A DNA stretch of 64,000 bases, taken from Emiliania huxleyi CCMP1516. Its lineage: Eukaryota. The stretch is taken from contig NW_005201360.1 in assembly GCF_000372725.1 (NCBI RefSeq), forward strand, positions 84,881-148,880, read 5' to 3'. Below are positions 9,039 through 61,868 of this stretch, one piece after another; positions within the stretch are counted from its first letter, which is position 1, and every line of letters starts with the position of its first letter. The translations under genes were made by a program, and so were the position numbers. The notes under the pieces were generated by a model. It made no database searches. It saw nothing but the letters and a program-made list of their open reading frames with translations, and was not told where the DNA came from.

Positions 9039-9333
9039 GGGGTGTGCCCGAGCATGATGTATGTGCGCGTCTGTGCGTGTGTGGGACAGACGTCGTTGTC
9101 CTATGCGCGGGGCTTCCCGCGGCGCATCGGGCACTTGGAGCACTTGGAGTGCAGTCATCAACCTCACATCCAGGGCCGGGGAGCCACGACCTTTTCTCGC
9201 CTTTTGAGCCCTTGTCGCACCTCGTATCCCAGCACCATTTCTCACCTCCTCAGCCCATTGTCGCACCTCGTCGCTGGCGCTCGCCTCTACCAGACGATCA
9301 TTGCTGTGCGGTTCCAGTGTTGGCAACGGACGC

Positions 9334-10095
9334 ATGAGAAGCCTGTGCCTCAGCAGCCTGCTATTGTTACATGGCGCCTGCTGCTGCTACATCGCACCGG
9401 CCTCGCGATCCGAATGTTCGAACACTGCCTCGCGCCGTCGCTGCCGACCTCCGCTCCTCTGGAGCGGCGAGACCTCGGCCGAGCTTGTGATTCGAGCGCC
9501 ACCGCAGCTGCTGTTTGAGGTGTACGCCGACATCGAGCGCATGCCAGAGTGGTCGCCGCTGCTGGAGCGCGTCACGCTCGTCGATCCGGCCGCGCGCCGA
9601 TCAGAGTGGGCGCTGCGCGTGCCGCGACCGCTCACACGGCTAGTCAACGCGGCGGGGCTGCAGAACCTGGTCCAGTGGGAGGCGATGCACGAGCTCGATC
9701 CGCCCCGCGCGCTGCGATGGCGGTCGCTCAGCGGCGTCCAAAACTCGGGCGAGGCCACCTTCACGCCGGTGGCTGGGCAGCCCCGTGCGACGACGGTGCG
9801 GCTGCGGATGTCCTACACGCTGCCGGACCTTGCTGGCCCGCTGGCCGAGACGAGACTGGCGCGCCCAGCCCGGCATCCCGCCGTGCGGTCACATTCTCAG
9901 CCCCCCTCTCGTCCCTGGCAGGCGCAGAGCTTTGTGCGTCGCACGATGCACGGCGCGATGACTCGCTTCCGAGATGCGATGGAGGCGCAGGCGGCAGCGG
10001 CGGTAGCGGCGGACGACGGAGGTGGCGGCGGCGCGGCGGTTGCAGAGGCCGCGATGGAGGCGGCGATGAAGGCGGCGATGGAGGCGCCGCCCTAG
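9334..10095 (+). CDS. SRPBCC cyclase/dehydrase family protein with N-terminal signal (possibly plastid-targeting) peptide
   Basis: Hydrophobic N-terminus MRSLCLSSLLLLHGACC; IRAPPQLLFEVYADIERMPEWSP, LRWRSLSGVQNSGEATF, VRLRMSY; probable intron ~9860-9921. Confidence 0.8.
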   Translation: MRSLCLSSLLLLHGACCCYIAPASRSECSNTASRRRCRPPLLWSGETSAELVIRAPPQLLFEVYADIERMPEWSPLLERVTLVDPAARRSEWALRVPRPLTRLVNAAGLQNLVQWEAMHELDPPRALRWRSLSGVQNSGEATFTPVAGQPRATTVRLRMSYTLPDLAGPLAETRLARPARHPAVRSHSQPPSRPWQAQSFVRRTMHGAMTRFRDAMEAQAAAAVAADDGGGGGAAVAEAAMEAAMKAAMEAPP

Positions 10096-13068: not shown

Positions 13069-15204
13069 CTACAGCCTGTACACCACATCGGCCGACGCCC
13101 AAGGGCAGGTTCTGGCGGGCGTGGGCGACATGTCCACCTTACGCAAGCTTGGACGGTTGTGGGGATGGCCTGCACACCCGCACCCGGAGGGCTCTTGGTG
13201 TTGGTCCTGGCGCCGCCGGCGCCGCCGCAAGTAGATTCCGGCCAGGAGTAGCGCACAGCTGACAACACATCCAGCGATTCCGGCAACGAGGGCGATGCTG
13301 CCTCCGCCCTCTGGTGGCGGCGGTGGCGGTGGGAGCGATGGTGGCGGCGGGAGCCATGGCGGTGGCGGCGGAGGCGGGTGGGGCGGAGGCGACGGAGGCG
13401 GAGGCGATGGGAGTGGCGGCTTGGGCGGCGGCGGATTTGGCGCCAGGTCGGGCGGGTGCGGCGGCGGCGAGGGTGGCGAGGGTGGTGGTGGAGATGGCGG
13501 CGGTGGCGATGGCGACGGCGGAGGAAGAGGCTCGGGGGAGGGTGGCGGCAACGGTGGAGGCGGTTGAGGTGACGGCGGTGGTGGACGTGGCACCGGTGGC
13601 CGGGGTGGCGGGGACGATGGTGACGGTGCGTTGCATAGCTCGGCGACATCAGTGGCGGCGGTGTCGCCGGCAGCGATGGCAATGGTGGCGGTGTGAGCAG
13701 TGATCGCACACGCGCGGATAACGTGACTCGAGGCTACCCTCGCCTCTTGAGTCGCTCGGAGCGAAGCCTCCAGCCGCGTGCCGCGATAATGATCGGCGGA
13801 AGTCAAAAGTCGGATGTGCACCTGTGTAACAACGCCCAGCTATCTCGCATCTCCCACCTGTCTCGCGTGTGAAGTGAGTTTGTCGGGCGGTGCGAGCGAG
13901 CCTGCACGTGATGGCGCTGGTCATCGGGGAGGTCGGCGTCGTACCCCGAATCGTCCCGCAGAGAGACCCACGCCTCGCTGTTTGGGTAGTCCGCGTAGCA
14001 CGAACGGCACAAGAAGCGGACCGCGGAGAGCACCGATGGCGCCGGCGGCTGGCCGACCGCATGGATGATGTACCGCTCGGCACCCTCGGGCTCAGCGAAG
14101 GCGACGTGGTCCGCGGTGATCCAGCCGAGCTGGAAACGGTTGACCACATTGAACCTGGCGCGACCGGCGGCGGCGAGGAGTGCTACGGGGCTGACAGGTG
14201 TGGTGTGAAAGGGCCCTTTTCACACCCAGCTGTGGCTTCTCTGTGGGCGGGGCGTCGCACGCTTTCCAGTGGCGGTTCTGGCCCATGACGGAGGTCGTGT
14301 CGCCGTAAGAATTGGCCGGGATGCCCGCATGGTAGAGCCCGAGGTTGTGCCCGAGCTCGTGCACCCGCGTCATCGGTTGAGCGTCGCGTATCACTGTGAA
14401 GCACCGGCCGTGGCTGTCTTCTCTGCCTGGCGGCGCACAGCCCACGTTGCCGATGCCTCCCCAGTTGCAGGAGCCAAATTCGCGGGGGACAAAGTACTCT
14501 CTATGCGTGAACAAGTTCGGGTCGATCCCCAGCTGCGACTTTGCCAAATCATTGGCGCGATTAAGCTCCGGAATCACGACCGCTTGGTAGTTACAGCCCA
14601 AGCTCTCCTCCGGGGTATGGTTGCCCATCATCACGGTGACGGCCATCACCGACGCGGCCTGGTCCAGCGAGGTGGCACCATACGAGGAGAAATTGAGGGC
14701 GTCGTTCACCCAGCCAGTCACCGTTCCCGAAACCTTGACGCCGCCAGCAGTGCCCCACATTCCATTGTCAGCGCACTCGTTGTTGCAGTAGTCTGGTGCC
14801 GCATCGGTGTACACAAGGCGGAGCGTCACGACCGTTCGTGCCATGGCGGCCCCGAGAGAAGTGTCCACGAGCGCGCGTGCACTCCTCGGCGCCATGGCGC
14901 CGGCAGTTCGAGCGATCTCTGCCTGAGGCAATGCCCTTGCCACAGGGCCGCCACGCCTGCCCGAGCCGAGGGCTGAAGCGGCGGCGATGGGGTCGAGGGC
15001 GGGAGCGCTCACGTTCAGGGTGACTGGGTGGTCAGCAGGGGCGCCGGAGAAGCACGGGCTGTCCGCAGAGACGTAATGCACTCCTCTGTCTCTTGTGGAG
15101 CAGACACCGTAAGCGAGCTGAGCGTGCGAGGCGCCCCAGTAATCTTCCGTGAGGAGCTCAAGGCGCTCGCACTCGAGCAGCATGCCTTGCGGCTGGGCGG
15201 CCAA
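13069..15204 (-). CDS. Membrane-anchored metzincin metalloprotease (peptidase M11/gametolysin-like) with polyproline stalk and C-terminal TM; multi-exon, start uncertain
   Basis: HELGHNLGLYHAG zinc motif, YGD.TSVMG Met-turn, CNWGGIGNVGC, following exon FNVVNRFQLGWI; (SP)nP stalk then IALVAGIAGCVVSCALLLAGIYL followed by RRRRRR. Confidence 0.85.
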
Positions 15205-15421
15205 ATAGGTCTGGCGGCAAAAGGCAGGCTGGCAGCGTTCGAGGTCGCCTGAGGGTCGGGCGGATCCAGGACGGGCGGTGAAACGCGTGTCACAACGCGC
15301 GAAAAGCCGAAAGCCGCAAATGCCCGCTGTCTGCCGAAAGCTGGTGTTCGTTTGGTGAAACCCGGCGACTCGACGGGTCGGCGGAACCCTGTACGAGTGA
15401 GAGTATATGTGTAGGGGGGAG

Positions 15422-15434
15422 GGAGAGAGAGAGA

Positions 15435-15510
<76 letters not shown>

Positions 15511-15553
15511 CAGAGGGAGAGAGAGAGAGAGAGAGGGGGGGGGGGAGACAGAG
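15422..15553. repeat. (GA)n microsatellite
   Basis: Direct reading. Confidence 0.95.
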
Positions 15554-16310
15554 AGGGTGAACCTTCTTTTTTTCTATCTACCAGGCACATGTAGGATTGA
15601 GAGCAGCCTCGCTCTCAATCCTAGAAGTCGAAGGACTGTGAGCAGCACTCCTAAAGTTCTAGGATTGTGAGCTAAGCTGCTCCGCAACACGCAACCCTAG
15701 ACTTTGCTCGGATTGCGAGCGCGCGATGGTAGTAAGTAGTCGTAGGCGTCATCCACCAGTCACAAACAGAGTTGTTTGGTATTGAAAATCTCCCCCCCAG
15801 TCACCTTCGTTCGGCCGTGCCCCCGCGAGGGGCGCGGTCGACACCAGAAGGGGGTTGTATGACGTTCTCTAGAGACGACGTAGTCGGGGACGTCCGCAAT
15901 CACAATGTGGACGGACACGACGGGGCGAGGTGTGAAAGCACAGAGGCAACCAACACACACTAGGGTTCGTTCGGGAGAGAGTGCCTGACGGGCTTCGGCC
16001 CGACGTCCCAGGGCCTTCTCCGTACGAGGGGAGCACGTCTCGCGCGCGGGGGCGGCGAGCAGGGCCTCGGATTCGCGCATGATCCGGTTCCGAGTGCTCT
16101 GGGAAAGAATTACAGACTTGCAAGGGAAAAGAAAACTCGAAGCACCCTCTACAAGCTCTCCGTTTGCTGCCTTGCTGCCGCTCGGCTTTGCTGCCTTGCT
16201 GACGGCTCCGCTGCCGTTCGGCTTTGCTGCCTTGCTGACTCCGCTGTCTTCGCTGTGCCCCCGGCTCCGCTTCCTTCGGCTGTGCCTCGCCCTTGCTGGA
16301 GAGCCTCACC

Positions 16311-36969: not shown

Positions 36970-39900
36970 TTAGTGGCCGTGCACGCAGCGGCGCTTCTGT
37001 GGCGCCGATGCGGGGGAGATGCCAGAGCCGGCGTAGAAGGCGAGCGGCCTCGCCGGCGACGGGCCAGAGGGGAAGCCCCGACGCTCGGGCGGCACCGAGG
37101 GCGATGACGAGGAGCCTGGCAGCGATGGCGGCGGCAGCGATGGCGGCGGCGAAGGCGGCTCGGGATCGTTCTCGCTATCGCTGCTGCAGCCATTACTGTC
37201 CTCGTCGGGGGCGGGCAGGCGCTCGATCCATCCGAGAGCGGGCTTTGGTGAAGCCGCTGCCCCCAGCCCGCGCGAGTCGCACGCCGAGGATCGGCGTGAT
37301 GTGCCCGACGCGGACGGCAGCGGGGACTGCCAGCTGCACAACGAGCGAGCGTACGGGGACGGCTTCGAGATGGAAGGGGAGACGTGCGGGGACGGCTTCG
37401 AGATGGAAGGGGAGAACCACCAGCCGGGCACTGCAGCGTCCTCCCGGCCGCCTTGGCGGGCATCGAGCTCGCGCCGCGAGGGCTGGGAGCGGGAGAGCTC
37501 GTCCGACGATGAGGGAAGATGGGAGCCGCGGGAGTGCCGGCAAGATGAGGAGAGGGCGAGCGGACTCGGCCTGACCGGGTTGAGCTCAATCGCACGCCTC
37601 GTCTCGCGCTTGGAGTGCCAAGCAGGCGAGTCCTCGGTACCGGCGGCGCGAATGACGTAGCGAAACTCGTCCTCGTCATCACCTGGCTGCCCAAAGGTGA
37701 GCACGCTGCCCTCGCGCAGCTGGGCGCTCGCCACCTCCTCGGCCGTAGACTGCAGGAGGACCGGCTCGCCACCTCCTCCCGGCTGCTGCACGCGGCACCC
37801 GTTCTTGCGCGAGACGTCTTCGAGCCGGACGCTGCGACCGTCGGCGGCGACGTGGAGCACGGCGTGCTGGCGCGAGATGTGCTGCGTCTTGAACAAGGCC
37901 ACGCCGCTCGACGCGTCGCGACCGACCGTGAGCGTGGCGCCGGGAGGCAGCGCGATCGGCGACGGCCGGCCAGCGCGAGCCCCGTTGACGCCCGCATCCA
38001 GCGCTAGCTCCAACGGCCAGCGAGCGGCGGGGGCCGCCGCGGTGTCCGACAGCGCCGGCGTCGAGGGCTGGCTTCCGAGCCGCGAGAGCTCTGCAGACAG
38101 CTGGTGGATGTCGCGGCTCTGCTGGCTGATGAGCGAGCGCTGCGAATGCACCCTGCTGCGCAGCTCATCGACAGTGCCGTAGGTGTTTGGCTCGGTGGAG
38201 ACAGAGATGTGCAGCAGGAGGCAGCACGAGTCGATCCGCGTGCCGCTTGGCGAGCGCAGGTGCAGGCAGCGGTAGCCGCAGCGCAGGGAACCTAGCATCA
38301 CCGTGTCGTACGCCACCAGCCGCCCCTCGTCCTCCACCACAACGCGGAGGATGGTCTGGTGAGGCTCGGCCGCGAGGCAGTGGAAGGTCTCGTCAAAGGT
38401 TGGGTTGAGGCCGTTGCCCTCCGCGACCGCGGTGGTGAGCCGCGTGACGCCCTGCGCCTCGGGCGGCGGCTGCGGCTCGCGTGCGACCGCGCAGAAGCCT
38501 CCGATGGCGTGCAGCTCGACGGCGACGCGCGGGCTCGACACGCTGGCGCTGGCCCCGCTGGGCGAATTGGGGCTATCGCTAAGGTGCGAGACGACGGCGT
38601 GGTGGGGCTCGGCGAGCAGCGGCCGGCACTCGTCCCGCGTCGGGAGCTGGTGCAGGGAGAGGACCTACGCGGCGTTGGGTCGCTCGGTGAGCTGACGAGA
38701 GGGAGAGCTGAACGGGGCGGCAGCAAGGAGCAGCGGAGCCTTCAGCTCCGTTCGATGCACCTCCTCCCGCGGCGGCGGCCACAGCTTCCCCCGCCCAGCC
38801 CCCTCGCGCAACACCCGATCATCGCCAGAGCCACCGCGAGCCGGGGTCACGGGGCCCCTGTTGGTTGGGGTCGGGGGCTGGATCGCCCGATCGGGCGCAC
38901 GGAGCGCCGCGGGCTTGAGGACGTAGCCACCGCTGCCGTGAAAGAGGGCGTCGTGGAGGTGCACCGGCAAGTCGTTCGTCTGCAGGTTGAGCGCCACCAT
39001 CTGCACACCCGCGCGCCACGCCACCTGTGGCGGAGGGAGAACGGTCCTTAGAGAGGATATGGGGGATTAAGCGAGGTGGTGGAAGCGAGGGCGGGCGCGC
39101 ACGAGTGGGTTGTTGTTGGTCGACCACCACCGAGTCGGAGAGGGGTAGGTTCTCACGAGCTGCGAGGCGGTGAGGGGCAGCAACCGTCCCTGCTCGCTCG
39201 CCAGCCGCTCGAGCCGCTCCTCCGACAAGCTCACGACACCGCGGCGGGGCTCGCCCGCCGGCTCCTCCGCAAGCCACGAGACGACCTGCAAGCCGGGCGA
39301 GCCCGGAGACCCGAAGGGCGACTCGGACGTCAGCGTGGCTCCGCTGTCGCCGTCGCCTCTTGTGCGGTCGAGAGGCACGCCGCGGAGCCAGTCCCAGACG
39401 CCACGGTGGAGGGGGCGGCTGCAGCGGAGCTCCTTCCAGCTCGCCGTGCGACCGAGCCGCCTGCCGCTGTCGTCCTCGTCGGGCGGCGATCGGCCGATGG
39501 AGGTCGTGGGCAGCGTGACGAGCGAGCGGAGGAGCGGGTCCGTGGTCACGCCGCCCTTGTCGAATCGCATCTTGATTAGCACCTTTCGGCGCAGCTCGCG
39601 GAGGGGCGTGCTCGCGACGCGGTCGCTGCGCGAGAGCAAGTCGCCCAGCGTGTTGATGAGCTCCTTGGCGATCTTGTTCTGCTGCTTCGCCGAGCAGTGC
39701 ATCTCGATGCTCAGAATCACGGGCAGAGGGCTGGCGGTGAAGGCGTGCTCGGCGATCGCAGCGACCACCTCGCCGAAGGCGACGCTTCCGCAGAGGAGAG
39801 GGACGCCTCCGCGCGTGGGGCCAATCATGCGGTGCGTGACGCGCGCCTGGCCCCACCACCGCGGGTCCCAGCAGTCGATCTCGAGGCAGCGAGTCCCCGA

Positions 39901-42900
39901 GAGCAGGAGGCGGCGGTACATGTCGGCAGACACGGCGGAGGTGAGCTGGTCGCCCTCGAGGAAGCTATTGTGCGACGAATCGATCCAGTAGCTGGTGAGC
40001 GGCTCAGTCGCGTCCGTGGGGGAGCGCCTAGGCTCGATGGCGCTGTTGCACGGCGAGAGCAGGAGGGAGGCGAACTCGTGCACCGAGATGGGCTCAGAGT
40101 CGACTGGCTCGGACGACTCCCTCGCCGCCTGCCTCGAGGCAGAGTCGCGGTGGACTGACGCGTCGCGATGCTTCTCCTTTGAGCGGAGGGCGCGGAGAGC
40201 GAGCTTCCACTCTTCCCACAGCTGGCGGCCCCCAGCGCCCTGCTCGCTGAGGCAGAAGCGAAGCAGGGCTCCCATGTTCAGTGACACCTGGGACTGCTCG
40301 ACGAAGGGCACGGTGCCCAGCGATGACATCCTCGTCAGCCTCGGCCCCGCCTCGAGGTCTGCGTGAGCAGGATGGTCAGTCCGGCGTCCGTCATTGCAGC
40401 AGCCGCTGCGCTGAGTGCAAGCCGCGGTCCCGCACCTCGATACCAGCTTCTCGACACACGCCTCGATGAAGGGCGTCGTGTTCCGAGTCACGTAGAGCCA
40501 CGCGCGAAGCTGCGCAGCCTCGCGCGCGGCCGTCCCCCACAGCTTCTGCTCCAGCACCGAGCTCCACAGGCGCTGCTCCACAAATGGGAGCCGCTCGACG
40601 TCGGGCGGGCCCTCGGTCGGCTCCTTGTTCGCCCTGCGGCAGATTCGCTCCCACACGACGTGACGCGTGGCATTAGGGCGCAGCAACGGCGCAGTACGAG
40701 CCCTGCTGCACGCCCGCCGCACCGCTCGTGCGCATCCGACGCAGGCGCGTACGGGAGCGCTCCGAGCGATTCGCCTGCGCAGCAGCGTCCACGGGCTCGT
40801 GCCGTGAGACGCGGCGATGCGCGATAGCGGCGGTACCGGCAGCCAGCTGAGCCAGCTGACGGAGAGGCAGCTGCAACAGTACAGGCACAGCAGCAGAACG
40901 ACGCACGCTGCCACGGCGCAGACGGCCGCTAGGACACTGCGGGGAAGATCGTCGCTGTCCGGCGATAGGCACTCGACATAGCGCCAGTCGCCATAGTTTT
41001 CGTGACACGCCTCTGCGAGAACGAATGAGTACCTGGCGATGCCGAGCGCGTTCTGGTACAGGCCGGTCTCGAGGTTGAGCGATGAGCTGCCTCCGCCGCA
41101 GTAGCCGTCGGCTCCGCAGCACTCGCCGTCATTACACCGCGTCACCTGCGTCTCATTCTCCGCGCACAGCTCGCCCTCCGGGCAGCGGGGCCCGCAGGGG
41201 GTGCGGAGCTCCCCGTCGGGGACGTCGAGCACACTCGGCTTAAGAATGGGGCCGTCGAGGTTGGTCGCGCCGGGGTCCGCGTCGGGGTCGCGGCAAGTGC
41301 CGACGGGCGGCGGCACGGAGCAGAAGCCACCGGTGCACGCCTCGGAGTTGCACTCGTGATCCGAGGAGCAGGGCTCGTTCACCAGCTTCGAGTACGTGCA
41401 GTTGCGCTCGAGCCTCTCCGTGTGCGTGTACGCCTCGCATGCCCAGTCCGTCACGTTGCACGCGCCACCGCCGCAGCAATCGACGTCCACCGAGCCGATG
41501 TAGCGGAGGTCCACGCCGTTGTCCACAAACTCCTTAAGCGCCGACGGAGGCACGATGCGCACACCGCTCGTGTTGACCGACAGGGCGCATTTACCGCTAT
41601 CAGCTGCGGATCGGATCGCATTGTCACGCAGACTGCGGCCGCCGCCACCGCCGCCTTTCTCCCTGATGCAGCGACGCAGCTCGTCGCCGTCGATGCCGTA
41701 CGCCTCAGGATCGCACGCGCCGATGGCGTCCTCGCCCAAGGTAATCGCCTCGCAATCAGCACTCGCAGAGACGCAGCGAAGGAATGGGAGTGGGGCGATC
41801 GCGCTGTGGGTGGTGGCGTTATTGGCCGCGGAAGCCTGCATAGTGCACTGGGTGAAGGCGTCGCCCTCGGCTGGCAGTACGTGCACAGTAGCGATCATCG
41901 GGCGCGGTGGCGGCAATGACTGGCCCCGTTCGACCATGAACTCGAGCTCTCCCGTGAGAGTATCGATGGCTGCCGCAGTGGCGTCGCCGCACTCGAAGTC
42001 GACCGTCACAGCGACGCTCGCCTGCACGCCGGAAATGGGCGTGGTAAAGGGGGGAGCAGAGAGGGAGAGAGGCCGGTAGGGCAGGCGCGCCTTGGGAGGC
42101 TCGTCCCCAGAGCCGCACGGGCCTGAGTACCCGGGAGGAAGCGTGGGACACACGCCGCCAGCGCACACCGCCTCGTCGTAGCACGGGCGGTAGTCGATGC
42201 AGCCGTCGCACTGACAGTGAGCCTCTGTGCTGCCGCACCAGCCATAGGGCGAGCAGCAGTAGTCGATGTCGCTGTTGGGGTCGCACTCGCCGATGGCGTT
42301 GCCAGCGAGGCCCGGGTATCCCGGCCCGCACCTGCCCTCATGGTTGTACAGTGACGGTTCAGAAGGCGGCGGCGGGGCTGGCGGCGCTTCAACAGGCGGT
42401 TCCACCACGCCAAAGTTGTAGATCACGCCGCTGCTCTCGCGCGATCCGCCCTCCCAGACCCATGTGCCGTTGTTGAATTGCGCTACGTACTTCTCAGAGA
42501 AGCCACCTTGGTCAAGCAGGTTGAACAGCTGCACGTTCGGGTTGCTCCTGTCGCCCTTCTCGTCGAACTCAACGCGCCCCGAAAGGCCGTCGAACGAGAG
42601 GTTCTGCTTGGCCTCCCAGAACTGCGTGCCAAATGACGCCGGCAGCGGGCCCGTCGGAGCCACTCGGCACGACAACAGCCCTGCAGCTATAACAGCATCG
42701 TAAGCAAAGGTGCCGCCCTCGCGTAGCACGGCACTCGTGTTAGGATCGACGGTTCTGAAGAAGTCGTCGCGGATCTGCCAATCGGCGGGCAGGAACTGGT
42801 TGAAGTCTCCGGGCTGGAGCTCCGGCCAGCGCTCGTTGGCAAAATGGGCCCACTGTGGGTTGTTGTCGGTTGCACCGACCGCCTTGATTTGCAGGCTGCC

Positions 42901-43779
42901 GTTCAGCGCGGCCTTCGCCTCCTCGCTTAATTCGGAAAAGGTATCGGAAAAGACATCGACAGGCAAAATGTCAGAGAAGACCCAAGAAGTACCGGGTCGG
43001 AGCAGACTGGTGTTCAGCGCAGTCTCTACGATGAGGCCAAGGTTCGTTCCCAAAGTGAGAACTAGCACTGCCTTGGCCCCGCTGCTGCTCAGACTTTGCA
43101 CGGCGTCCCGGATCGACTCTTCGCGGGTCGATTCATCTTCGGAGAACTCTTTGCTGACGAACGTCAACCCGAGGCTCTGGCACTCTGCTTTTGCTGCTTC
43201 CTCGTAGGCGCGGCCGTACGCGGTCTGCGCATAGAGTACGGCCACTGTCGATACCTTGAGTTCATCCTTCCAAAAGGAACAGAGGTCAGAAGCGGGCGCA
43301 AGTTGCGAGGGTATGGTCCTCATAAAGCGAGGGTAGAAGGTGTCGGACAGATCGGTCGACTGTGACCAGTACGAAATTTGAGGGATGTCGAGAGCGCCGG
43401 TGATGGCCGCGGTGGTGGCGGAGACATCGCTACGAACGGCTCCGATGACCACATCTGTGCCAGACGACAAGTCTCCCAACCCCTGGACTGACTTGGCAAC
43501 TGTGCCGCCGCTGTCGAGCAGCCGGAACTGAAGCTGCTTGTCGCACCCAGCCAAGGTCCCAAGCACGGGTAGAGCAGTAGCGGCCCGCGAGTTGAAGTCC
43601 GTCACTGCGGTCAGGGCGGCCGCAACGACCGCCTGCATTCGCTTTGGCAACCAACACGTGTCATCGACAAAGTCGCCGGCGCAAGTTTCGGCGGAAGTGG
43701 AGCGCGCGTTCGATTGCAAGGTGAGGACTGCGAGGCTCACATTTGTGGAAGCGAGAGCCGGCAGCAGCAGTGACAGCAT
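36970..43779 (-). CDS. Receptor-like phosphoinositide phospholipase C: signal peptide, ANF-receptor/Venus-flytrap domain, hevein-like Cys modules, TM, PLC-X/Y, C2, FHA (~2200 aa)
   Basis: Continuous ORF 39103-43779, spliced via 39025-39102 (GT-AG) and 38665-38739 (GC-AG) in frame to 36970. VFT motifs IPQISYWSQSTDLSD..YPRFMRTIP, YDAV, FDGLSGRVEFDEKGDR; PLC motifs YWIDSSHNSFLEGDQL, CLEIDCWD, PVILSIEMHC, LVRTYP, QMVALNLQT, GYVLKP; C2 NGLNPTFDETF, GYRCLHL; FHA VGR..ISRQHA..NG. Confidence 0.9.
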
Positions 43780-44326
43780 GGACGGCTGCCAGGGCCGGCC
43801 GGCGTCCACGACGAAAGGCAGCCGCCAGCCAGGAAAAAGCAGCCGCCCTCGGGCAAGGCACGAAGTGGGACGCCGATGAAGACACGGGGCATGAGCGACG
43901 GAGACTCCGCTGTGAAGCCCGCGCCGAAAAAGGAGTGAAGGGGGGGGAACGTCAAACCAGACATGCGGTCTGATGATTAATTGTTTTGACCAAGAAAGAA
44001 AGCCCCGCACGTCTGGTTTGCGGGAATGTTCGATTGTTTTTGTAATGTTCGTAAACGTACTGAGAAAAGGGTTGCTTAAAGGGAGGAGTCGAGCTCGAGC
44101 ACAGGCTGAGGGTCTCTCTTCGGTTCGTACCGCAAGAAGGACGCATTTCTCAATACAACCTCTCCCTCTCTACCTCCTCTACGCGGGCAGCCGCGTCGAA
44201 GTACGGAGGGGCCCTTTGCAGAGGGCGTTCCTCCCATGCAATCAAGGAGGTGCGAATGATGACACGCCCTCCGATCGCCTTTGGCCTCGACCCGGCCCAC
44301 CCGGCCCACCCCTTGCGAAACACACG

Positions 44327-44824
44327 ATGGCGACTCAGTGCGGCCTCGACCCGTGCGTGCCCACGACCGACACGGCGGCGGAGCGTGACTCTCACACCGC
44401 TCGGTTCAAGCTCCGTGCAGTCCGCGCCGCACTTGCCCGCCCAGTCTGGTATCGCATCAGCCCGACGTGCCGCGAGTTTGGAGTCAGCTCGCCCGAGCTG
44501 CGCGGCTGGATCAAAGACAGAGACGAGCTCGAGGCGCTGGGTGTGCTTGAGGCATACGTCGACGCTGTGCTTGAGGGACCGACGCTGCCCGATTCGCCGA
44601 GGTGCGTCACTTGGCCTCACAACAGCACGGGGACGCTCCCTGAGCAGGAGGCTCCCGCCTCTGAGACCGGGCCTCCCATGTGTTCGAATGAGCCCCAGAC
44701 GTGTCTGGCGAAGCTATCGACGCGGCAGACGGCTTTCTGGCTCGATCCGCTCGAAGAACTGTCGGAAGAGAACTCGTGGTCAACGTGCCGGATGGCGTGG
44801 TCGCGCAATACGCGCGCGAGCTAG
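44327..44824 (+). CDS. Small protein with Brinker-like/HTH DNA-binding domain
   Basis: RDSHTARFKLRAVRAAL...ISPTCREFGVSSPELRGWIK resembles the R.S(Y/F)T..FKL..V....R.FGV....R.W.K HTH. Confidence 0.6.
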   Translation: MATQCGLDPCVPTTDTAAERDSHTARFKLRAVRAALARPVWYRISPTCREFGVSSPELRGWIKDRDELEALGVLEAYVDAVLEGPTLPDSPRCVTWPHNSTGTLPEQEAPASETGPPMCSNEPQTCLAKLSTRQTAFWLDPLEELSEENSWSTCRMAWSRNTRAS

Positions 44825-57030: not shown

Positions 57031-59129
57031 TATGCAAGGAGAGTTGGAGTATTTTCTTACTTCTACTTCGCGGAGGCTGTCCAGATACTGGGATACTTCG
57101 CAGCAGGCCTCGAATACTGGGATACTGTGAAAGATTTCCCTGTGAGATATGGCGCAGTAATAATACTTCAATACTCCGAGTTGGTACCGCAGATACTTCG
57201 ATACTCGTGTTGACGCACCCGGTGAGTATCACAGTACTCGATCCACGCCGGCGAAGTATCCCAGTATCACAGAGCTAAATGCCAAGTAATAATACTGCAA
57301 TACTGGGCGCTTCTTGGTCCTCCAGCCCCGCCGAGTATCCCAGTATCCGCATCAGAGATGGCCAGTATCCAGCAGTATCCCGCAGTATCCTGCAGTATCC
57401 TGCAGTATCCCAGTATCCGGGGTCGGCCCTCGAGCGATGCATTGCACTGCGGCCGCAGTCGCACGTCCAGCAGCGGGATGCGAGGCAGCAGCTAGGTGGG
57501 GAGGGATTGAGCCAATTGAGCAGCGTGGGCAAGCGAAGACTGCCGTAAGTGTGTGCCCGCGCCCTGCCGGCGCAATGGTGTAAACGCGTGTGCAAGGGCT
57601 GGCGGGGTGGGGAAGGCGGCAACGGAACGAGGTGGGCGAAGACGGCTGAGGCGCCAGTGCTGGAACTGAGGGAGAGTGTCGTGGCAGTGCACTGGTGCTG
57701 GTGCTGTGTGGAGAGGAAGACCCACTTCGGGGAGGCGTCACGGCCAACATTGAGCGCAGCAAGGTGGTCACGTCCTGCGGCGCACGCACAGGAATCATAG
57801 TATATCACACAGCAGCTGTGCCGTAAAAGGGTCCCAGAGCTATCTCGGTGGCTAGGGGCTGGATTGGCTGGGCGCGTCAGCTCCCACAAGCGCACTGCAT
57901 GCGATATCAACGTTGTGATGCAGCGTCAGCCTTGGCAATTGAAGCTTGGCGCCGGCACGCAGGAGCACCAGCGTCTGCAGCGCTTGAATGGCGTGTGCAA
58001 ACTTTTGCATCTCAGGCGGCCGGGCGTCGCGGCGCCCTCTCGCAAGTGCTGTGACCCAGGGAGGGCCCGTGAAAGTGATAGAACGGTCGAAAAGTTCGAG
58101 CGTCATTCATGTCGCCGAAGTTCCTTCGATGTCTCCTCCCGCCAACCCCAACCAGCCCCGCACGACCCCAATCGGCCGCACACCGCCACACAGCAGGCTC
58201 TGGTGACCGACACAACTCTTTGCTTGGCGCCGGACCGTCTCGAGTGAACCCACCGGTGTGGGCGCCGCCGCTGAGCATCACGGCAAACGGGTGACGGACC
58301 TACACATAAACTGAATCACCTCGGCCGACCATGCCGCTGCGGCCGACGATGTCGGATGCTCTCGAGCACTCTCCAGCGCCGGGCGCGGTCCTGACACAGC
58401 CGGCCGTGCTTCACCGCCGCTGTTCAGCTCGGCGGCAGAAATGGCAGCGGATACGAGCTCTTTACCGACTACCGAGCGGCAGTCGGAGAACTCGTGAGCT
58501 TCCACACATCACAACTCCTGCCGATGCATTCTGGAACAATCACATAACGACTGCCATCACCACTGCCCACTTGCGACATTTGTGGCCCAAGCCGGTCCGC
58601 AGTATCCCAGTATCCCAGTATCCGGTATCCACATCAGCCGGGGATGCTCTAGGGAGGGGTGCAGCTGCATGGTGACAACTACCAGTGAGAAGGATGGGGA
58701 TGCAGCTGGCTGCTGGACCATGGCTTACACACGGGCACACTTCCATGAATTGCCAGTATCCAGCAGTATCCAGCAGTATCCCGCAGTATCCTGCAGTATC
58801 CCAGTATCCGATGCGCCGGCTCCGAGTATTGCGGTGAAAATACTGCGCGATACTGCCATGGCCACACTACTTCAGTAACACAGTATCTGCATGCCCCAGG
58901 CCCAGTATTGCAGTATCACCCTCGCGGCAGAGAGGTATTTGCGCCACCGATACTTGGCCTTTGCTTGCGGGATATTGGGATACTTGGCCAAGGGCCGTGT
59001 GCAGGTAGCATGCAGTATTGCAATAAAAATACTTGCTTTGCGTGTCTGAAATACTGGAATACTGCGCCACAGCACCTCAGATACTGGGATACTGGAAATA
59101 CTGTGAAATACTCCAACTCTCCTTGCCTA
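57031..59129. mobile_element. 2.1-kb non-autonomous DNA transposon with subterminal CAGTATCC arrays
   Basis: TIR TA(T/G)GCAAGGAGAGTTGGAGTATTT (57031-57054 / 59106-59129), direct repeat CCGAG at 57026-57030 and 59130-59134, many CAGTATCC/GGATACTG units near both ends. Confidence 0.88.
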
Positions 59130-61564
59130 CCGAGGCTGACTAGCGCCTCGTCGCACCTCTCCGCCTTCCTCTCCACCCCCTCCTCCGCCGTCTCTCGCGC
59201 GAGCGCCCTCAGCGCCGCAACACCGCCGACTCGGTGCCACTGCGCAGCGCACGCAGACGAGGAGTTTGCTAGGGCCAGGAGGGCGTCGATGCTGTCTCTG
59301 CGCCAGCCATCCTTCTCTGGCTGATCGAGCCGCGAGAGGAGCAGCGAGAGGCAATGGTCGTCAGCCGCGAGGTCGGGACGGGTGCCGGCTAGATTTACAA
59401 GCGCAATTGCAGCAGTGAGCTTGCAGAGGTCTGAGGCGCCTGTCTCCTGCGTGAGAGAGTAGAGGACCGCCACACCGCCAGCCTCCACGACGCCCTCGTG
59501 CGTGGCAGACGCTGCCGCGATCATGTTGCTGAGCACCCCTGCGGCACGCTTCTTCTGCTCCTCAGTCCCATCTCGAGCCAGCGCAATAAGGACCTCCACG
59601 CCGCCAGCCGCCGCGATCGCCACGCTGTGTTTGTCGTTGATAGCGAGGTTCCACAGCGCCCCCGCCGCACGCTGCTTCTGCCCATCAGTCCCGTCGCGAG
59701 CCAGCGCAATAAGCACCTCGATCCCGCCTGCTGCGGCGATCGCCACCTTCTCGTCGTTGTAAGCGAGGCTCGCCAGCGCTCCCGCAGCATTCTCCTTCTG
59801 CGCCTCATTCCCGTCGCGAGCCAGCGCAACGAACAGCTCGATCCCCCCGGCCGCAACAATCGCCGCCTCGTTGTCGTCGTTGTAAGCGAGGTTCCACAGC
59901 GCTCCTGCCGCACGATCCTTCTGCCCCTCATTCCCGTCGCGAGCCAGCGACACGAGGACCTCCACGCCGCCAGCCGCGGCGATCACCACGCTGTTGTCGT
60001 CGTTGTAAGCGAGGTTGCACAGCGCCCACGCCGCACGCTCCTTCTGCGCCTCATTCCCGCCGCGAGCCAGCGACACGAGGACCTCGATGCCGCCGGCCGC
60101 AGCGATCGCCACCTCGTTATCGTCGTTGATAGCGAGGTTGCACAGCGCCCACGCCGCACGCACTTTCTGCGCCTCATTCCCGTCACGTGCCAGCGACACG
60201 AGGACCTCGATGCCGCCGGCCGCTGCGATCACCTCCCTGGTGTCGCTGCTGGCAGAGAGGTTCCACAGCGCCCCCGCCGCTTCCTCCTTCTGCGCCTTAT
60301 TCCCGCCGCGAGCCAGCGACACGAGGACCTGCACGCCGCCGGCCGTAGCAATCGCCGTCTTGTTGTCGTCGTTGATAGCGAGGTTGCACAGCGCCCCCGC
60401 CGCACGCGCCTTTTGCTCCTCATGGCCGTCGCGAGCCAGCGACACGAGGGCTTCGATGCCGCCGGCCGCTGCGATCACCTCCCTGGTGTCGCTGCTGGCA
60501 GAGAGGTTCCACAGCGCCCCCGCCGCTTCCTCCTTCTGCGCTTTATTCCCGTCGCGAGCCAGCGACACGAGGACCTGCACGCCGCCGGCCGTAGCAATCG
60601 CCGTCTTGTTGTCGTCGTTGATAGCGAGGTTGCACAGCGCCCCCGCCGCACGCGCCTTTTGCTCCTCATGGCCGTCGCGAGCCAGCGACACGAGGGCTTC
60701 GATGCCGCCGGCCGCTGCGATCACCTCCCTGGTGTCGCTGCTGGCAGAGAGGTTCCACAGCGCCCCCGCCGCTTCCTCCTTCTGCGCTTTATTCCCGTCG
60801 CGAGCCAGCGACACGAGGACCTCCACGCCGCCGGCCGCAGCAATCGCCGTCTTGTTGTCGTCGTTGATAGCGAGGCGGCACAGCGCCCCCGCCGCACGCT
60901 CCTTCTGCACCGCATTCCCGTCGCGAGCCAGCGACACGAGGACCTGCACGCCGCCGGCCGCAGCAATCGCCGTCTTGTTGTCGTCGTTGATAGCGAGGCG
61001 GCATAGCGCCCACGCCGCACGCTCTTTCTGCACCTCATTCCCGTCGCGAGCCAGCGACACGAGGACCTCGATGCCGCCAGCCGCTGCGATCACCTCCCTG
61101 GTGTCGTCGTCCCCTGCAATTAGAACGAGCGCCATCACGGCGTCCCCCTTCTCGTCCTCGTCTCCGACCCGCAAGAGGGCGACGAGCGCGTCCACCCTCC
61201 TGCCGCCGGCCTCCTCTCTCGACAGCCGCTTGAGCTCTCCAAGCGCAGCAGCGCGCAGCGCCGAGGAGGCATCGCCAGCGGTCTCAACCAGCCGCGCGAA
61301 GGCACCGCGCGGCGCGCAGATCAGGGACCACCGCTTGCAGACGGCCGCGTGGCGCAGGCCCGTCTTCTCGAGGACGCATGGCGCAAGGTCCGGGTCCTCC
61401 AGGACGTCGGTCGCGACGGCGGGCGGAGGGCTGTGGTGCGCGAGGAGCGCCTCGAGGTACCTGTTTGCAGCGGGGCTGTCCCGCATGGCGCCGGCGGTGA
61501 TCGCGATCAGGACATCGGGCGAAAGAGCGGCGAGCCGCAGCTCGTAGCGGTCAGAGGCGAGCAT
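58916..61564 (-). CDS. F-box-like + armadillo-repeat protein (~14 ARM repeats); last ~70 codons derive from the transposon
   Basis: VLEDPDLAPCVL..AAVCKRW then 41-aa repeats IAAAGGIEVLVSLARDG...KE.AAGAL.NLA. Confidence 0.9.
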   Translation of the reverse strand: MLASDRYELRLAALSPDVLIAITAGAMRDSPAANRYLEALLAHHSPPPAVATDVLEDPDLAPCVLEKTGLRHAAVCKRWSLICAPRGAFARLVETAGDASSALRAAALGELKRLSREEAGGRRVDALVALLRVGDEDEKGDAVMALVLIAGDDDTREVIAAAGGIEVLVSLARDGNEVQKERAAWALCRLAINDDNKTAIAAAGGVQVLVSLARDGNAVQKERAAGALCRLAINDDNKTAIAAAGGVEVLVSLARDGNKAQKEEAAGALWNLSASSDTREVIAAAGGIEALVSLARDGHEEQKARAAGALCNLAINDDNKTAIATAGGVQVLVSLARDGNKAQKEEAAGALWNLSASSDTREVIAAAGGIEALVSLARDGHEEQKARAAGALCNLAINDDNKTAIATAGGVQVLVSLARGGNKAQKEEAAGALWNLSASSDTREVIAAAGGIEVLVSLARDGNEAQKVRAAWALCNLAINDDNEVAIAAAGGIEVLVSLARGGNEAQKERAAWALCNLAYNDDNSVVIAAAGGVEVLVSLARDGNEGQKDRAAGALWNLAYNDDNEAAIVAAGGIELFVALARDGNEAQKENAAGALASLAYNDEKVAIAAAGGIEVLIALARDGTDGQKQRAAGALWNLAINDKHSVAIAAAGGVEVLIALARDGTEEQKKRAAGVLSNMIAAASATHEGVVEAGGVAVLYSLTQETGASDLCKLTAAIALVNLAGTRPDLAADDHCLSLLLSRLDQPEKDGWRRDSIDALLALANSSSACAAQWHRVGGVAALRALARETAEEGVERKAERCDEALVSLGRQGELEYFTVFPVSQYLRCCGAVFQYFRHAKQVFLLQYCMLPAHGPWPSIPISRKQRPSIGGANTSLPRG

Positions 61565-61868
61565 CGTGAGCCTGTCGAGGACTGGAAGCAAGACAGGCCG
61601 TGGGTGTGGTTGTCACGAGGACAGAAGACGTGGACGCACGTAAACTCACTCGGAGAATCCGATTCACACTCACGGACTGTCCGAGGAGGCCACCGGCCAA
61701 AAGCGCATGTCTAGGGTGGTGTGGCATCTCTTGCGGGTCTCGCCAGGGGCGCCTACCAACCTCGCTTGCGAGGGGCGTGTGGCATGTCTGAACGGACTCG
61801 TGAGGGGCGCCTGCCAACCTCGCTTCGTCGAAGCGGCGCTCGGTACCCACACCCAACCCGCCGCATTC

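What the first reader, a model, noticed from the sequence alone, without database searches (positions are those of the whole stretch)
36970..43779. Single-pass 'receptor phospholipase C': Venus-flytrap + chitin-binding ectodomain fused to PI-PLC X/Y-C2-FHA
Seen in sequence: one stop-free frame runs from a hydrophobic N-terminus (43779) through an ANF-receptor/class-C-GPCR-type Venus-flytrap domain (~42480-43640), Cys-rich modules, a TM helix (SVLAAVCAVAACVVLLLCLYCC, ~40860-40940), PLC-X (~39570-40000) and the start of PLC-Y. The ectodomain-to-PLC fusion therefore does not depend on any splice prediction. Two short introns join the rest of Y, C2 (~38180-38660) and FHA (~37650-37940). Established knowledge: characterised PI-PLCs are soluble or peripheral enzymes activated via G proteins, tyrosine kinases or Ca2+. 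The catalytic residues appear retained here (SSHN His/Asn, CLEID Glu/Asp, second His in VTHR, SIEMH Glu, K.R, SLSE, RTYP). Inference: a receptor that couples extracellular ligand binding directly to PIP2 hydrolysis and IP3/Ca2+ signalling, analogous to receptor guanylyl cyclases. I know of no characterised example.
Basis: partly seen in the sequence, partly recalled or inferred. Interest (0 to 1): 0.95.

Follow-up and report, generated by a model that had tools for sequence, protein, structure and literature searches.

The report
Receptor phospholipase C of coccolithophores
This alga gene joins, in one reading frame, a sensor domain like those of calcium and glutamate receptors, a predicted membrane-spanning helix and a phospholipase C with its catalytic residues intact, so it likely acts as a receptor that makes lipid second messengers by itself, and a sister gene appears to be the calcium-induced phospholipase C earlier linked to shell-plate (coccolith) formation.

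Summary
One stop-free frame (43779-39067, minus strand) encodes a Venus-flytrap (VFT) domain, a 490-aa Cys-rich insert with a hevein-type module, one hydrophobic helix, an EF-hand region, PLC-X and most of PLC-Y. Two short introns, both seen as joints in RNA-run contigs, add the rest of Y, C2, a coiled coil and FHA (about 2218 aa). All eleven PLC active-site positions checked are kept (K440 as Arg). It is not a one-off chimera: Emiliania huxleyi CCMP1516 has a full VFT-TM-PLC-C2-FHA model (EMIHUDRAFT_113919), and other assemblies hold paralogs, mostly without the insert. The same VFT-TM is also joined to an ART-like domain, and related ones to TIR-like and class C 7TM domains. The enzyme sits in a clade with Prymnesium multi-pass receptor-like PLCs. 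The qPCR primers for the Ca2+-induced 'PLC delta' transcript tied to calcification (PMC7563939) fall in the VFT of an insert-less paralog, not this copy. Ligand, topology, activity and gating are untested. Ten literature searches found no description of a transmembrane or receptor PI-PLC.

The parts
36970..43779 (-). Whole coding region, three exons, about 2218 aa (2211 with the alternative GT donor of intron 2)
   Evidence: same domain order in EMIHUDRAFT_113919
43747..43779 (-). Short hydrophobic N-terminus, predicted signal peptide
   Evidence: KD 1.79; conserved in paralogs; no SignalP-type tool available
42409..43740 (-). Venus-flytrap (ANF_receptor / class C GPCR type) domain
   Evidence: Pfam E 1.3e-31; best solved relatives CaSR E 2.3e-9, then mGluR and T1R
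42349..42402 (-). Pro-rich linker, shared in part with insert-less paralogs
42184..42330 (-). Hevein-type chitin-binding module, 8 Cys; S510/Y512/W514/H521 match S51/W53/W55/H62 of amphioxus PGRP3
   Evidence: phmmer to 4Z8I E 6.3e-12; residues from PMC4610682 passages
40945..42183 (-). Cys-rich acidic ectodomain segment of unknown fold, with a second degenerate hevein-like motif
   Evidence: 38 Cys in the 490-aa insert; aa 591 onward conserved in P0006; no PDB or Atlas hit
40876..40938 (-). Single predicted transmembrane helix followed by a Cys cluster
   Evidence: KD 2.93; acidic upstream, basic downstream
40756..40836 (-). Juxtamembrane motif, likely homologous to the segment after the last TM of Prymnesium multi-pass PLCs
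   Evidence: reciprocal profile tests, (individually weak)
40030..40557 (-). Degenerate EF-hand region (approximate limits); no PH domain
   Evidence: paralog model aligns from aa 188 with PLC-zeta 15-643, Z 36.4; PH-block profile gives no family hit
39565..40008 (-). PI-PLC X box (H1270, N1271, E1300, D1302, H1316, E1359, K1403, R1405)
39280..39564 (-). X-Y linker, 95 aa, charge-neutral (12 D/E, 13 K/R), variable among paralogs
38908..39279 (-). PI-PLC Y box (S1517, R1543, Y1545), split by intron 1
39025..39102 (-). Intron 1, GT-AG, 78 nt
   Evidence: joint 39021-39100 (CT..AC) in 3 of 4 runs, 2 of them RNA on record
38665..38739 (-). Intron 2, GC-AG, 75 nt (alternative GT donor at 38760)
   Evidence: 75-nt joint in 2 of 4 runs on a paralog-like contig; the GT form matches the P0007 gene model
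38191..38664 (-). C2 domain with the clade-specific insertion after LHQLP
38074..38172 (-). Predicted coiled coil (a/d positions L,V,Q,I,Q,I,L)
   Evidence: helix 857-883 in the paralog model
37690..37959 (-). FHA domain with GR, SxxH and NG motifs
   Evidence: Pfam E 3.1e-7; motifs; motif roles recalled
36973..37659 (-). Ser/Pro-rich low-complexity tail

Best explanation
The gene encodes a Venus-flytrap domain, one hydrophobic helix and a complete EF-X/Y-C2 phospholipase C in one polypeptide, which is predicted to be a type I membrane protein and likely works as a one-component receptor enzyme, in which ligand binding outside would switch on phosphoinositide hydrolysis inside. Shown: domain order, one frame, splice joints, catalytic residues, PLC fold of a paralog, and a paralog family. 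Inferred steps: (1) the VFT closes on a small ligand (amino acid, organic acid or cation; the pocket differs from CaSR/mGluR); (2) closure or clustering reorients a dimer held by the VFT and the post-C2 coiled coil; (3) the TM and basic juxtamembrane helix, which stand where other PLCs have a PH domain, press the catalytic barrel onto the inner leaflet; (4) PI(4,5)P2 or PI4P is cut to DAG and inositol phosphate; (5) FHA links the receptor to phospho-Thr partners. In this copy the hevein module would add binding to GlcNAc polymers, which favours activation by clustering over rigid coupling. Odds: real membrane-tethered PLC gene 0.9; active enzyme 0.75; activity gated by the ectodomain 0.5.
For: One frame from Met to PLC-Y. 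VFT plus PLC-X in 4 of 7 hits and 5 of 11 hits; full-length reference model EMIHUDRAFT_113919. P0002 ends by reading into the same intron 1, so its VFT-TM-PLC join needs no splicing. Contigs of RNA or presumed-RNA runs bridge VFT end to hevein, insert to juxtamembrane, and VFT end to TM in insert-less paralogs. Eleven active-site positions kept. Paralog model matches PLC-delta1 at Z 36.5, rmsd 3.1 over 471 residues. The same or related VFT-TM modules carry ART-like, TIR-like or 7tm_3 outputs, the pattern of a swapped sensor module. Clade with Prymnesium ectodomain-multi-TM-PLCs, SH-aLRT 97 for 18 of 42 rows. A VFT-bearing 'PLC delta' transcript is induced by Ca2+.
Against: No assay of any member. 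No single record spans VFT to PLC. About 490 residues of insert lie between VFT and TM in this copy, which would weaken rigid coupling. The CaSR S170-equivalent is Gln here (Thr in paralogs) and the A168-equivalent is Trp. One paralog (P0007) has almost no ectodomain and Tyr551-equivalent Phe, so the tether exists without a sensor. The X-Y linker is not acidic, so the usual autoinhibition is not evident. No IP3 receptor row in the held, truncated CCMP371 annotation.
Confidence: 0.5

Rival explanations
1. Membrane-tethered PLC regulated from inside (Ca2+, phosphorylation through FHA, G proteins); the ectodomain only sets location or adhesion.
For: Ectodomains vary or nearly vanish among close paralogs (P0007, P0006). 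The PH domain is lost, so the TM may simply replace it as an anchor. Haptophytes have most GPCR pathway parts (PMC3971589 passages).
Against: A full VFT with Ser and Tyr pocket positions is kept at 70-73% identity across paralogs and is reused on other effectors, which is costly for a mere anchor.
Confidence: 0.25
2. Immune-like pattern-recognition receptor: this copy is clustered by chitin or peptidoglycan through the hevein module, within a shuffled repertoire whose other outputs are TIR-like and ART-like domains.
For: Hevein module closest to the chitin-binding domain of amphioxus PGRP3, with all four sugar-binding positions matched. VFT-TM-TIR-like (P0205, P0208, P0211) and VFT-TM-ART-like (P0207, 96% identical to P0002 over 505 aa) relatives. 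Many divergent paralog contigs.
Against: Six VFT-PLC relatives lack the insert. The Pfam chitin, TIR and ART scores are below curated cut-offs. P0207 rests on one contig.
Confidence: 0.15
3. A recently shuffled, weakly functional or enzymatically dead paralog.
For: No database protein has this exact architecture. Gly after the second catalytic His is Arg. GC3 rises from about 0.7 in the VFT to about 0.9 in the PLC part.
Against: 1570 codons without a stop. 12 of 19 listed variants in the insert are synonymous, like 12 of 22 in the PLC part. An RNA-run contig matches the insert at 586 of 587 nt. Catalytic residues intact.
Confidence: 0.07
4. Assembly chimera or two separate genes.
For: The family is multi-copy and polymorphic, which invites misjoins; contigs are short.
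Against: The joins recur in independent records: VFT-TM-PLC in the CCMP1516 reference and ENA records; insert-TM-PLC in JGI and ENA records; VFT-to-hevein in a separate run.
Confidence: 0.03

Closest known systems
Eukaryotic PI-PLC, closest in layout to PLC-zeta / plant type (EF-X-Y-C2) and PLC-delta1
   Same: X and Y boxes, C2, EF region, active-site residues, fold (Z 36)
   Different: Signal peptide, ectodomain and TM; no PH; C2 insertion; coiled coil and FHA. Described PI-PLC layouts carry no TM in the passages read (PMC4122161, PMC9694693).
Receptor guanylyl cyclases (NPR-A/B type; recalled)
   Same: VFT/ANF_receptor ectodomain, one TM, cytoplasmic second-messenger enzyme, coiled coil
   Different: Effector is PLC, not kinase-homology plus cyclase; VFT sequence is nearer class C GPCRs; gating untested.
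GPCR-bigrams (GPCR-PIPK, -INPP, -AC, -PDE, -TKL; PMC6033456, PMC5784254)
   Same: Receptor fused to a phospholipid-signalling enzyme; GPCR-PIPKs occur in E. huxleyi (3) and C. tobin (4)
   Different: One TM, not seven; PLC is not among the listed bigram types. The Prymnesium multi-TM PLCs found here would be an unlisted type.
Class C GPCRs (CaSR, mGluR, T1R)
   Same: VFT domain followed by a Cys-rich segment; signal ends at PLC (through Gq in animals)
   Different: No 7TM and no G-protein step; Cys-rich part gave no NCD3G match; pocket residues partly changed.
Hevein-type chitin-binding domain of amphioxus BbtPGRP3 (PMC4610682)
   Same: 8-Cys pattern and four sugar-binding positions
   Different: Trp53 is Tyr; embedded in a receptor ectodomain; binding untested.

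Membership tests
Eukaryotic PI-PLC | X and Y boxes forming a split TIM barrel | tested here: met
   Pfam X 1.4e-35, Y 4e-14 plus 9e-5; paralog model Z 36.5 to PLC-delta1
Eukaryotic PI-PLC | Catalytic His pair, Ca2+ ligands and substrate residues | tested here: met
   H1270, N1271, E1300, D1302, H1316, E1359, K1403, R1405, S1517, R1543, Y1545; PLC-delta1 numbering and roles recalled
Eukaryotic PI-PLC | EF-hand region and C2 flanking the barrel | tested here: met
   C2 Pfam above cut-off; EF region by structure of paralog P0007, no Pfam EF hit
Eukaryotic PI-PLC | Hydrolysis of PIP2 to IP3 and DAG | not testable with these tools
   needs an assay
PLC-delta subfamily | N-terminal PH domain | tested here: not met
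   no Pfam PH; clade PH-block profile gives no family hit better than E 12
Single-pass receptor enzyme (receptor guanylyl cyclase-like) | Signal peptide, ectodomain, one TM, cytoplasmic enzyme | tested here: met
   hydropathy and charge bias only; the signal peptide is short and was not scored by a dedicated predictor
Single-pass receptor enzyme (receptor guanylyl cyclase-like) | Ligand-regulated enzyme activity in a dimer | not testable with these tools
   needs an assay
Receptor guanylyl cyclases | Kinase-homology and cyclase domains | tested here: not met
   absent from Pfam scans
Class C GPCR | VFT domain | tested here: met
Class C GPCR | 7tm_3 domain | tested here: not met
   one TM peak; no 7tm_3
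GPCR-bigram | 7TM domain fused to a catalytic domain | tested here: not met
   single TM; clade relatives P0011, P0188, P0045, P0009 have 5-7 hydrophobic segments
Hevein-like chitin-binding domain | Cys pattern and Ser/aromatic/aromatic/aromatic-or-His site | tested here: met
   Pfam score 19.4 is under the 27.8 cut-off
FHA phospho-Thr reader | GR, SxxH, NG motifs | tested here: met
   motif roles recalled

The most novel reading that the evidence does not exclude
Coccolithophores have collapsed the CaSR-Gq-PLC pathway into one polypeptide: VFT-PLC receptors sense external or vesicle-lumen Ca2+ (or a Ca2+-dependent ligand) and directly fire the phosphoinositide signal that drives coccolith formation. 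They are the single-pass branch of an undescribed haptophyte class of receptor PLCs, derived from multi-pass receptor PLCs by keeping the last TM and swapping ectodomains.
Probability: 0.18. Interest if true: 0.95.

Novelty: new variant of a known kind. Interest (0 to 1): 0.82.

Why it matters
PI-PLCs are described as cytosolic or peripheral enzymes that receptors reach through G proteins, kinases or Ca2+. An integral-membrane, ectodomain-bearing PLC would add a new effector class to receptor enzymes, beside kinases, cyclases and GPCR-PIPKs. It also supplies named candidates for the PI-PLC implicated in E. huxleyi calcification, which so far rests on transcript induction and the unselective inhibitor U73122, and makes 'how does a coccolithophore sense calcium or other cues' testable with one gene in a heterologous cell. 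As a G-protein-free ligand-to-IP3/DAG module it could also be useful for engineered sensors.

Tried and rejected
Single-sequence AlphaFold of the ectodomain failed (mean pLDDT 39) and was not used. A VFT homodimer job gave no verdict and counts neither way. The Cys-rich segment had no PDB sequence match and no usable Atlas hit; P0212 also had none; this shows neither novelty nor absence. The idea that the insert is an intron was rejected: the skipping joints (40836-42413, 40924-42386) lack splice ends and match insert-less paralogs, and the insert is in frame, conserved and present in RNA-run contigs. Contig depth was not used to rank expression. Run X14 laid only 3 contigs. X1 and X5 are RNA only by guess, and X1 has one contig running from 37382 past 36000, beyond the stop. 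The hydropathy screen flagged 40 of 185 proteins, including near-duplicates and likely false positives such as PLC-gamma-type P0114 and P0145. The CCMP371 annotation table is cut before unigene c31896, so its domain content could not be read; supplementary figures S1-S4 of PMC7563939 are pictures and were not seen. A paper on IP3-receptor phylogeny was not held. Four look-ups of earlier scan findings were empty. Pfam on 26 other long frames of the window showed no signalling cluster.
Full report
Observation. The minus strand holds one stop-free frame, 39067-44169, whose first Met is at 43779. Pfam places ANF_receptor at aa 82-421 (E 1.3e-31), a weak Chitin_bind_1 at 498-528, PI-PLC-X at 1258-1405 (1.4e-35) and the start of Y in this frame; the end of Y, C2 and FHA follow in two downstream frames. 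Hydropathy has one strong peak, aa 948-966 (KD 2.93), and a weaker N-terminal one. The insert before the helix is acidic, Cys-rich and carries sequons (38 Cys, 71 D/E against 29 K/R); the segment after it is basic (43 K/R against 27 D/E). This fits type I topology but is prediction. Eight intron combinations give an open frame. Contig joints select 39102-39025 (GT-AG; 3 of 4 runs, two recorded as RNA) and, on a paralog-like contig, 38739-38665 (GC-AG; 2 of 4 runs). The product is about 2218 aa.

Is the fusion real? A whole-length search returned 7 proteins, 4 with both VFT and PLC-X; a VFT-only search returned 11, 5 with PLC-X. Named ones are Emiliania huxleyi CCMP1516 models: EMIHUDRAFT_215146, EMIHUDRAFT_99535 (tiny ectodomain) and EMIHUDRAFT_113919, a complete VFT-TM-X-Y-C2-FHA model of 1528 aa, 72% identical to the window protein in both halves. 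The window is therefore most likely from the Emiliania/Gephyrocapsa group (inference). Six VFT-PLC relatives (P0002-P0005, P0206, P0212) join VFT to TM directly; P0006/P0177 (JGI and ENA records) carry the insert from aa 591 on, then TM and PLC-X. In runs laid on 40500-42800, contigs bridge VFT end to hevein module (X1, 42088-42438), insert to juxtamembrane (X1; X2, recorded RNA, joint 40828-40968) and VFT end to TM or juxtamembrane in insert-less paralogs (X1, X5); an X2 contig matches 41437-42023 at 586 of 587 nt. No record spans the whole, and X1 and X5 are RNA only by guess. Of the variants listed (best-supported rows only), 12 of 19 in the insert and 12 of 22 in the PLC part are synonymous, above the roughly one in four expected without selection (general knowledge).

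The enzyme. Alignments to solved PLCs keep the SSHN, EID, second His, E-x-H, K-x-K(R), S-x-x-E and R-x-Y-P positions (PLC-delta1 roles recalled). An AlphaFold model of paralog P0007 on a 50-sequence alignment (mean pLDDT 68; mostly above 75 over aa 270-620 and 690-850) matches PLC-delta1 (Foldseek E 3.7e-39; Z 36.5, rmsd 3.1, 471 residues) and PLC-zeta from its EF hands onward (Z 36.4). The alignment contained many PLCs, so the EF assignment may lean on them. There is no PH domain. After C2 comes a regular heptad helix, present in several clade members, then an FHA with its canonical motifs.

The sensor. The VFT's best solved relatives are CaSR (E 2.3e-9), then mGluRs and T1R. CaSR S147 and Y218 equivalents are kept, S170 is Gln here but Thr in most relatives, and A168 is Trp (residue roles recalled), so the ligand cannot be named. 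The hevein module best matches amphioxus PGRP3 (E 6.3e-12) and keeps its four sugar-binding positions, one as Tyr (PMC4610682, abstract and passages). The other 410 residues have no match. The VFT-TM module is mobile: P0207 (one Logan contig) is 96% identical to P0002 over 505 aa and then switches to an ART-like domain; more distant relatives carry TIR-like domains or 7tm_3. The ART and TIR scores are below curated cut-offs.

Origin. A search of 1.84 billion representatives (3255 hits, best 150 listed) and one search turned up other membrane-embedded PLCs, including Prymnesium parvum AB1Y20_020505 (beta-helix and ephrin-receptor-like ectodomain, at least five hydrophobic segments, PLC) and AB1Y20_006104, and a transcriptome protein clustering with P. 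polylepis. On an X+Y+C2 tree of 42 chosen rows the window protein falls in an 18-row clade (SH-aLRT 97) with these; 8 of the 18 carry hydrophobic segments, and some of the rest may be fragments. They share a C2 insertion. A profile of the family's TM and juxtamembrane segment finds the segment after the last TM of the multi-pass proteins (best E 8e-4 among 196); the reverse profile ranks ten family members directly after the seed relatives at E 0.09-1.1, with P0007 lower (E 3). Descent from a multi-pass receptor PLC, keeping the last TM, losing PH and gaining a class C-type VFT, is thus likely but weakly supported; the tree has no tested root.

Link to calcification. PMC7563939 (passages, sections 3.3 and 4.4, supplementary tables searched and part 1 of 4 read) reports PI-PLC transcripts induced when E. 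huxleyi CCMP371 moves from 0.1 to 10 mM Ca2+, and loss of coccoliths with U73122; its main text has no 'transmembrane', 'receptor' or 'signal peptide'. Its qPCR primers for unigene c31896_g2_i3, 'phospholipase C, delta' (log2 fold change 1.49, adjusted P 2.2e-4; sister c31896_g3_i1 1.60, 5.8e-10), translate to two peptides at aa 248 and 274 of the VFT of P0002, P0003 and P0207, in order, giving a 100-nt amplicon; shuffled peptides hit the 229 session proteins 6 and 8 times in 5000. So the induced 'PLC' transcript carries this family's ectodomain. Limits: the window copy is not the target (6 of 23 mismatches for the forward primer, no reverse site); expression is low (FPKM about 1); the label could come from a best hit, although fragments hitting these gene models were labelled 'hypothetical protein' in the companion table (PMC6715215, passages and truncated supplement); the ART-type paralog shares the peptides; induction does not make Ca2+ the ligand; and U73122 has off-targets (PMC9694693 passages).

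Mechanism and rivals. I commit to a ligand-gated single-pass receptor PLC (0.5). A tether regulated from inside (0.25), a glycan-clustered immune-like receptor (0.15), a decaying paralog (0.07) and a chimera (0.03) are the rivals.

Literature. Ten full-text searches found no description of a transmembrane or receptor PI-PLC. The GPCR-bigram papers list PIPK, INPP, AC, PDE, TKL and AP types, not PLC (PMC6033456, PMC5784254; passages). PMC12716839, PMC3971589, PMC4122161 and PMC3727952 (passages) show none. Subscription journals and unseen supplements are not covered, and the architecture does sit unremarked in public gene models. Verdict: real, a new effector variant of the receptor-enzyme design, interest 0.82.

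Noticed in passing
P0011, P0188/P0045, P0060, P0191: Prymnesium-type proteins with large ectodomains (beta-helix, ephrin-receptor-like repeats), five or more hydrophobic segments and PH-like, EF, X/Y, C2 parts: an apparent GPCR-PLC bigram class absent from the bigram papers read.
   Followed up: partly
P0207: VFT-TM 96% identical to a VFT-PLC paralog but fused to an ART-like domain; single Logan contig.
   Followed up: partly
P0205, P0208, P0211, P0008: One or two VFTs, a TM and a TIR-like cytoplasmic domain in unnamed marine eukaryote records.
   Followed up: partly
P0118, P0150, P0009, P0010, P0112: Further membrane PLC layouts: multi-TM N-termini outside the main clade, C-terminal multi-TM (P0010), and X-Y-C2-fn3 with a C-terminal hydrophobic segment (P0112).
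   Followed up: no
P0013, P0076: PLCs with an N-terminal hydrophobic anchor forming their own clade (SH-aLRT 96); P0013 is from Artemidia motanka.
   Followed up: no
P0037, P0040: Tandem double PLCs in Rigifila ramosa and in chytrid fungi (Clydaea, Lobulomyces).
   Followed up: no
window 40894, run X5 (table 7): A contig leaves the gene just inside the TM with 171 unrelated letters, hinting at yet another cytoplasmic partner for this TM.
   Followed up: no
window 14095-15573 (-): Gametolysin peptidase M11 match (E 1.5e-11).
   Followed up: no
window 27314-31029 (+): PHD-SNF2-helicase chromatin remodeller spread over several frames.
   Followed up: no
window 58919-61612 (-): Armadillo-repeat protein with 11 repeats.
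   Followed up: no
window 43916-44821 (+): Frame upstream of the gene on the opposite strand with a weak HTH_28 match, covered by deep contigs in run X1; possibly a transposon remnant.
   Followed up: no
window 9208-10092 (+): Polyketide cyclase / START-like domain.
   Followed up: no
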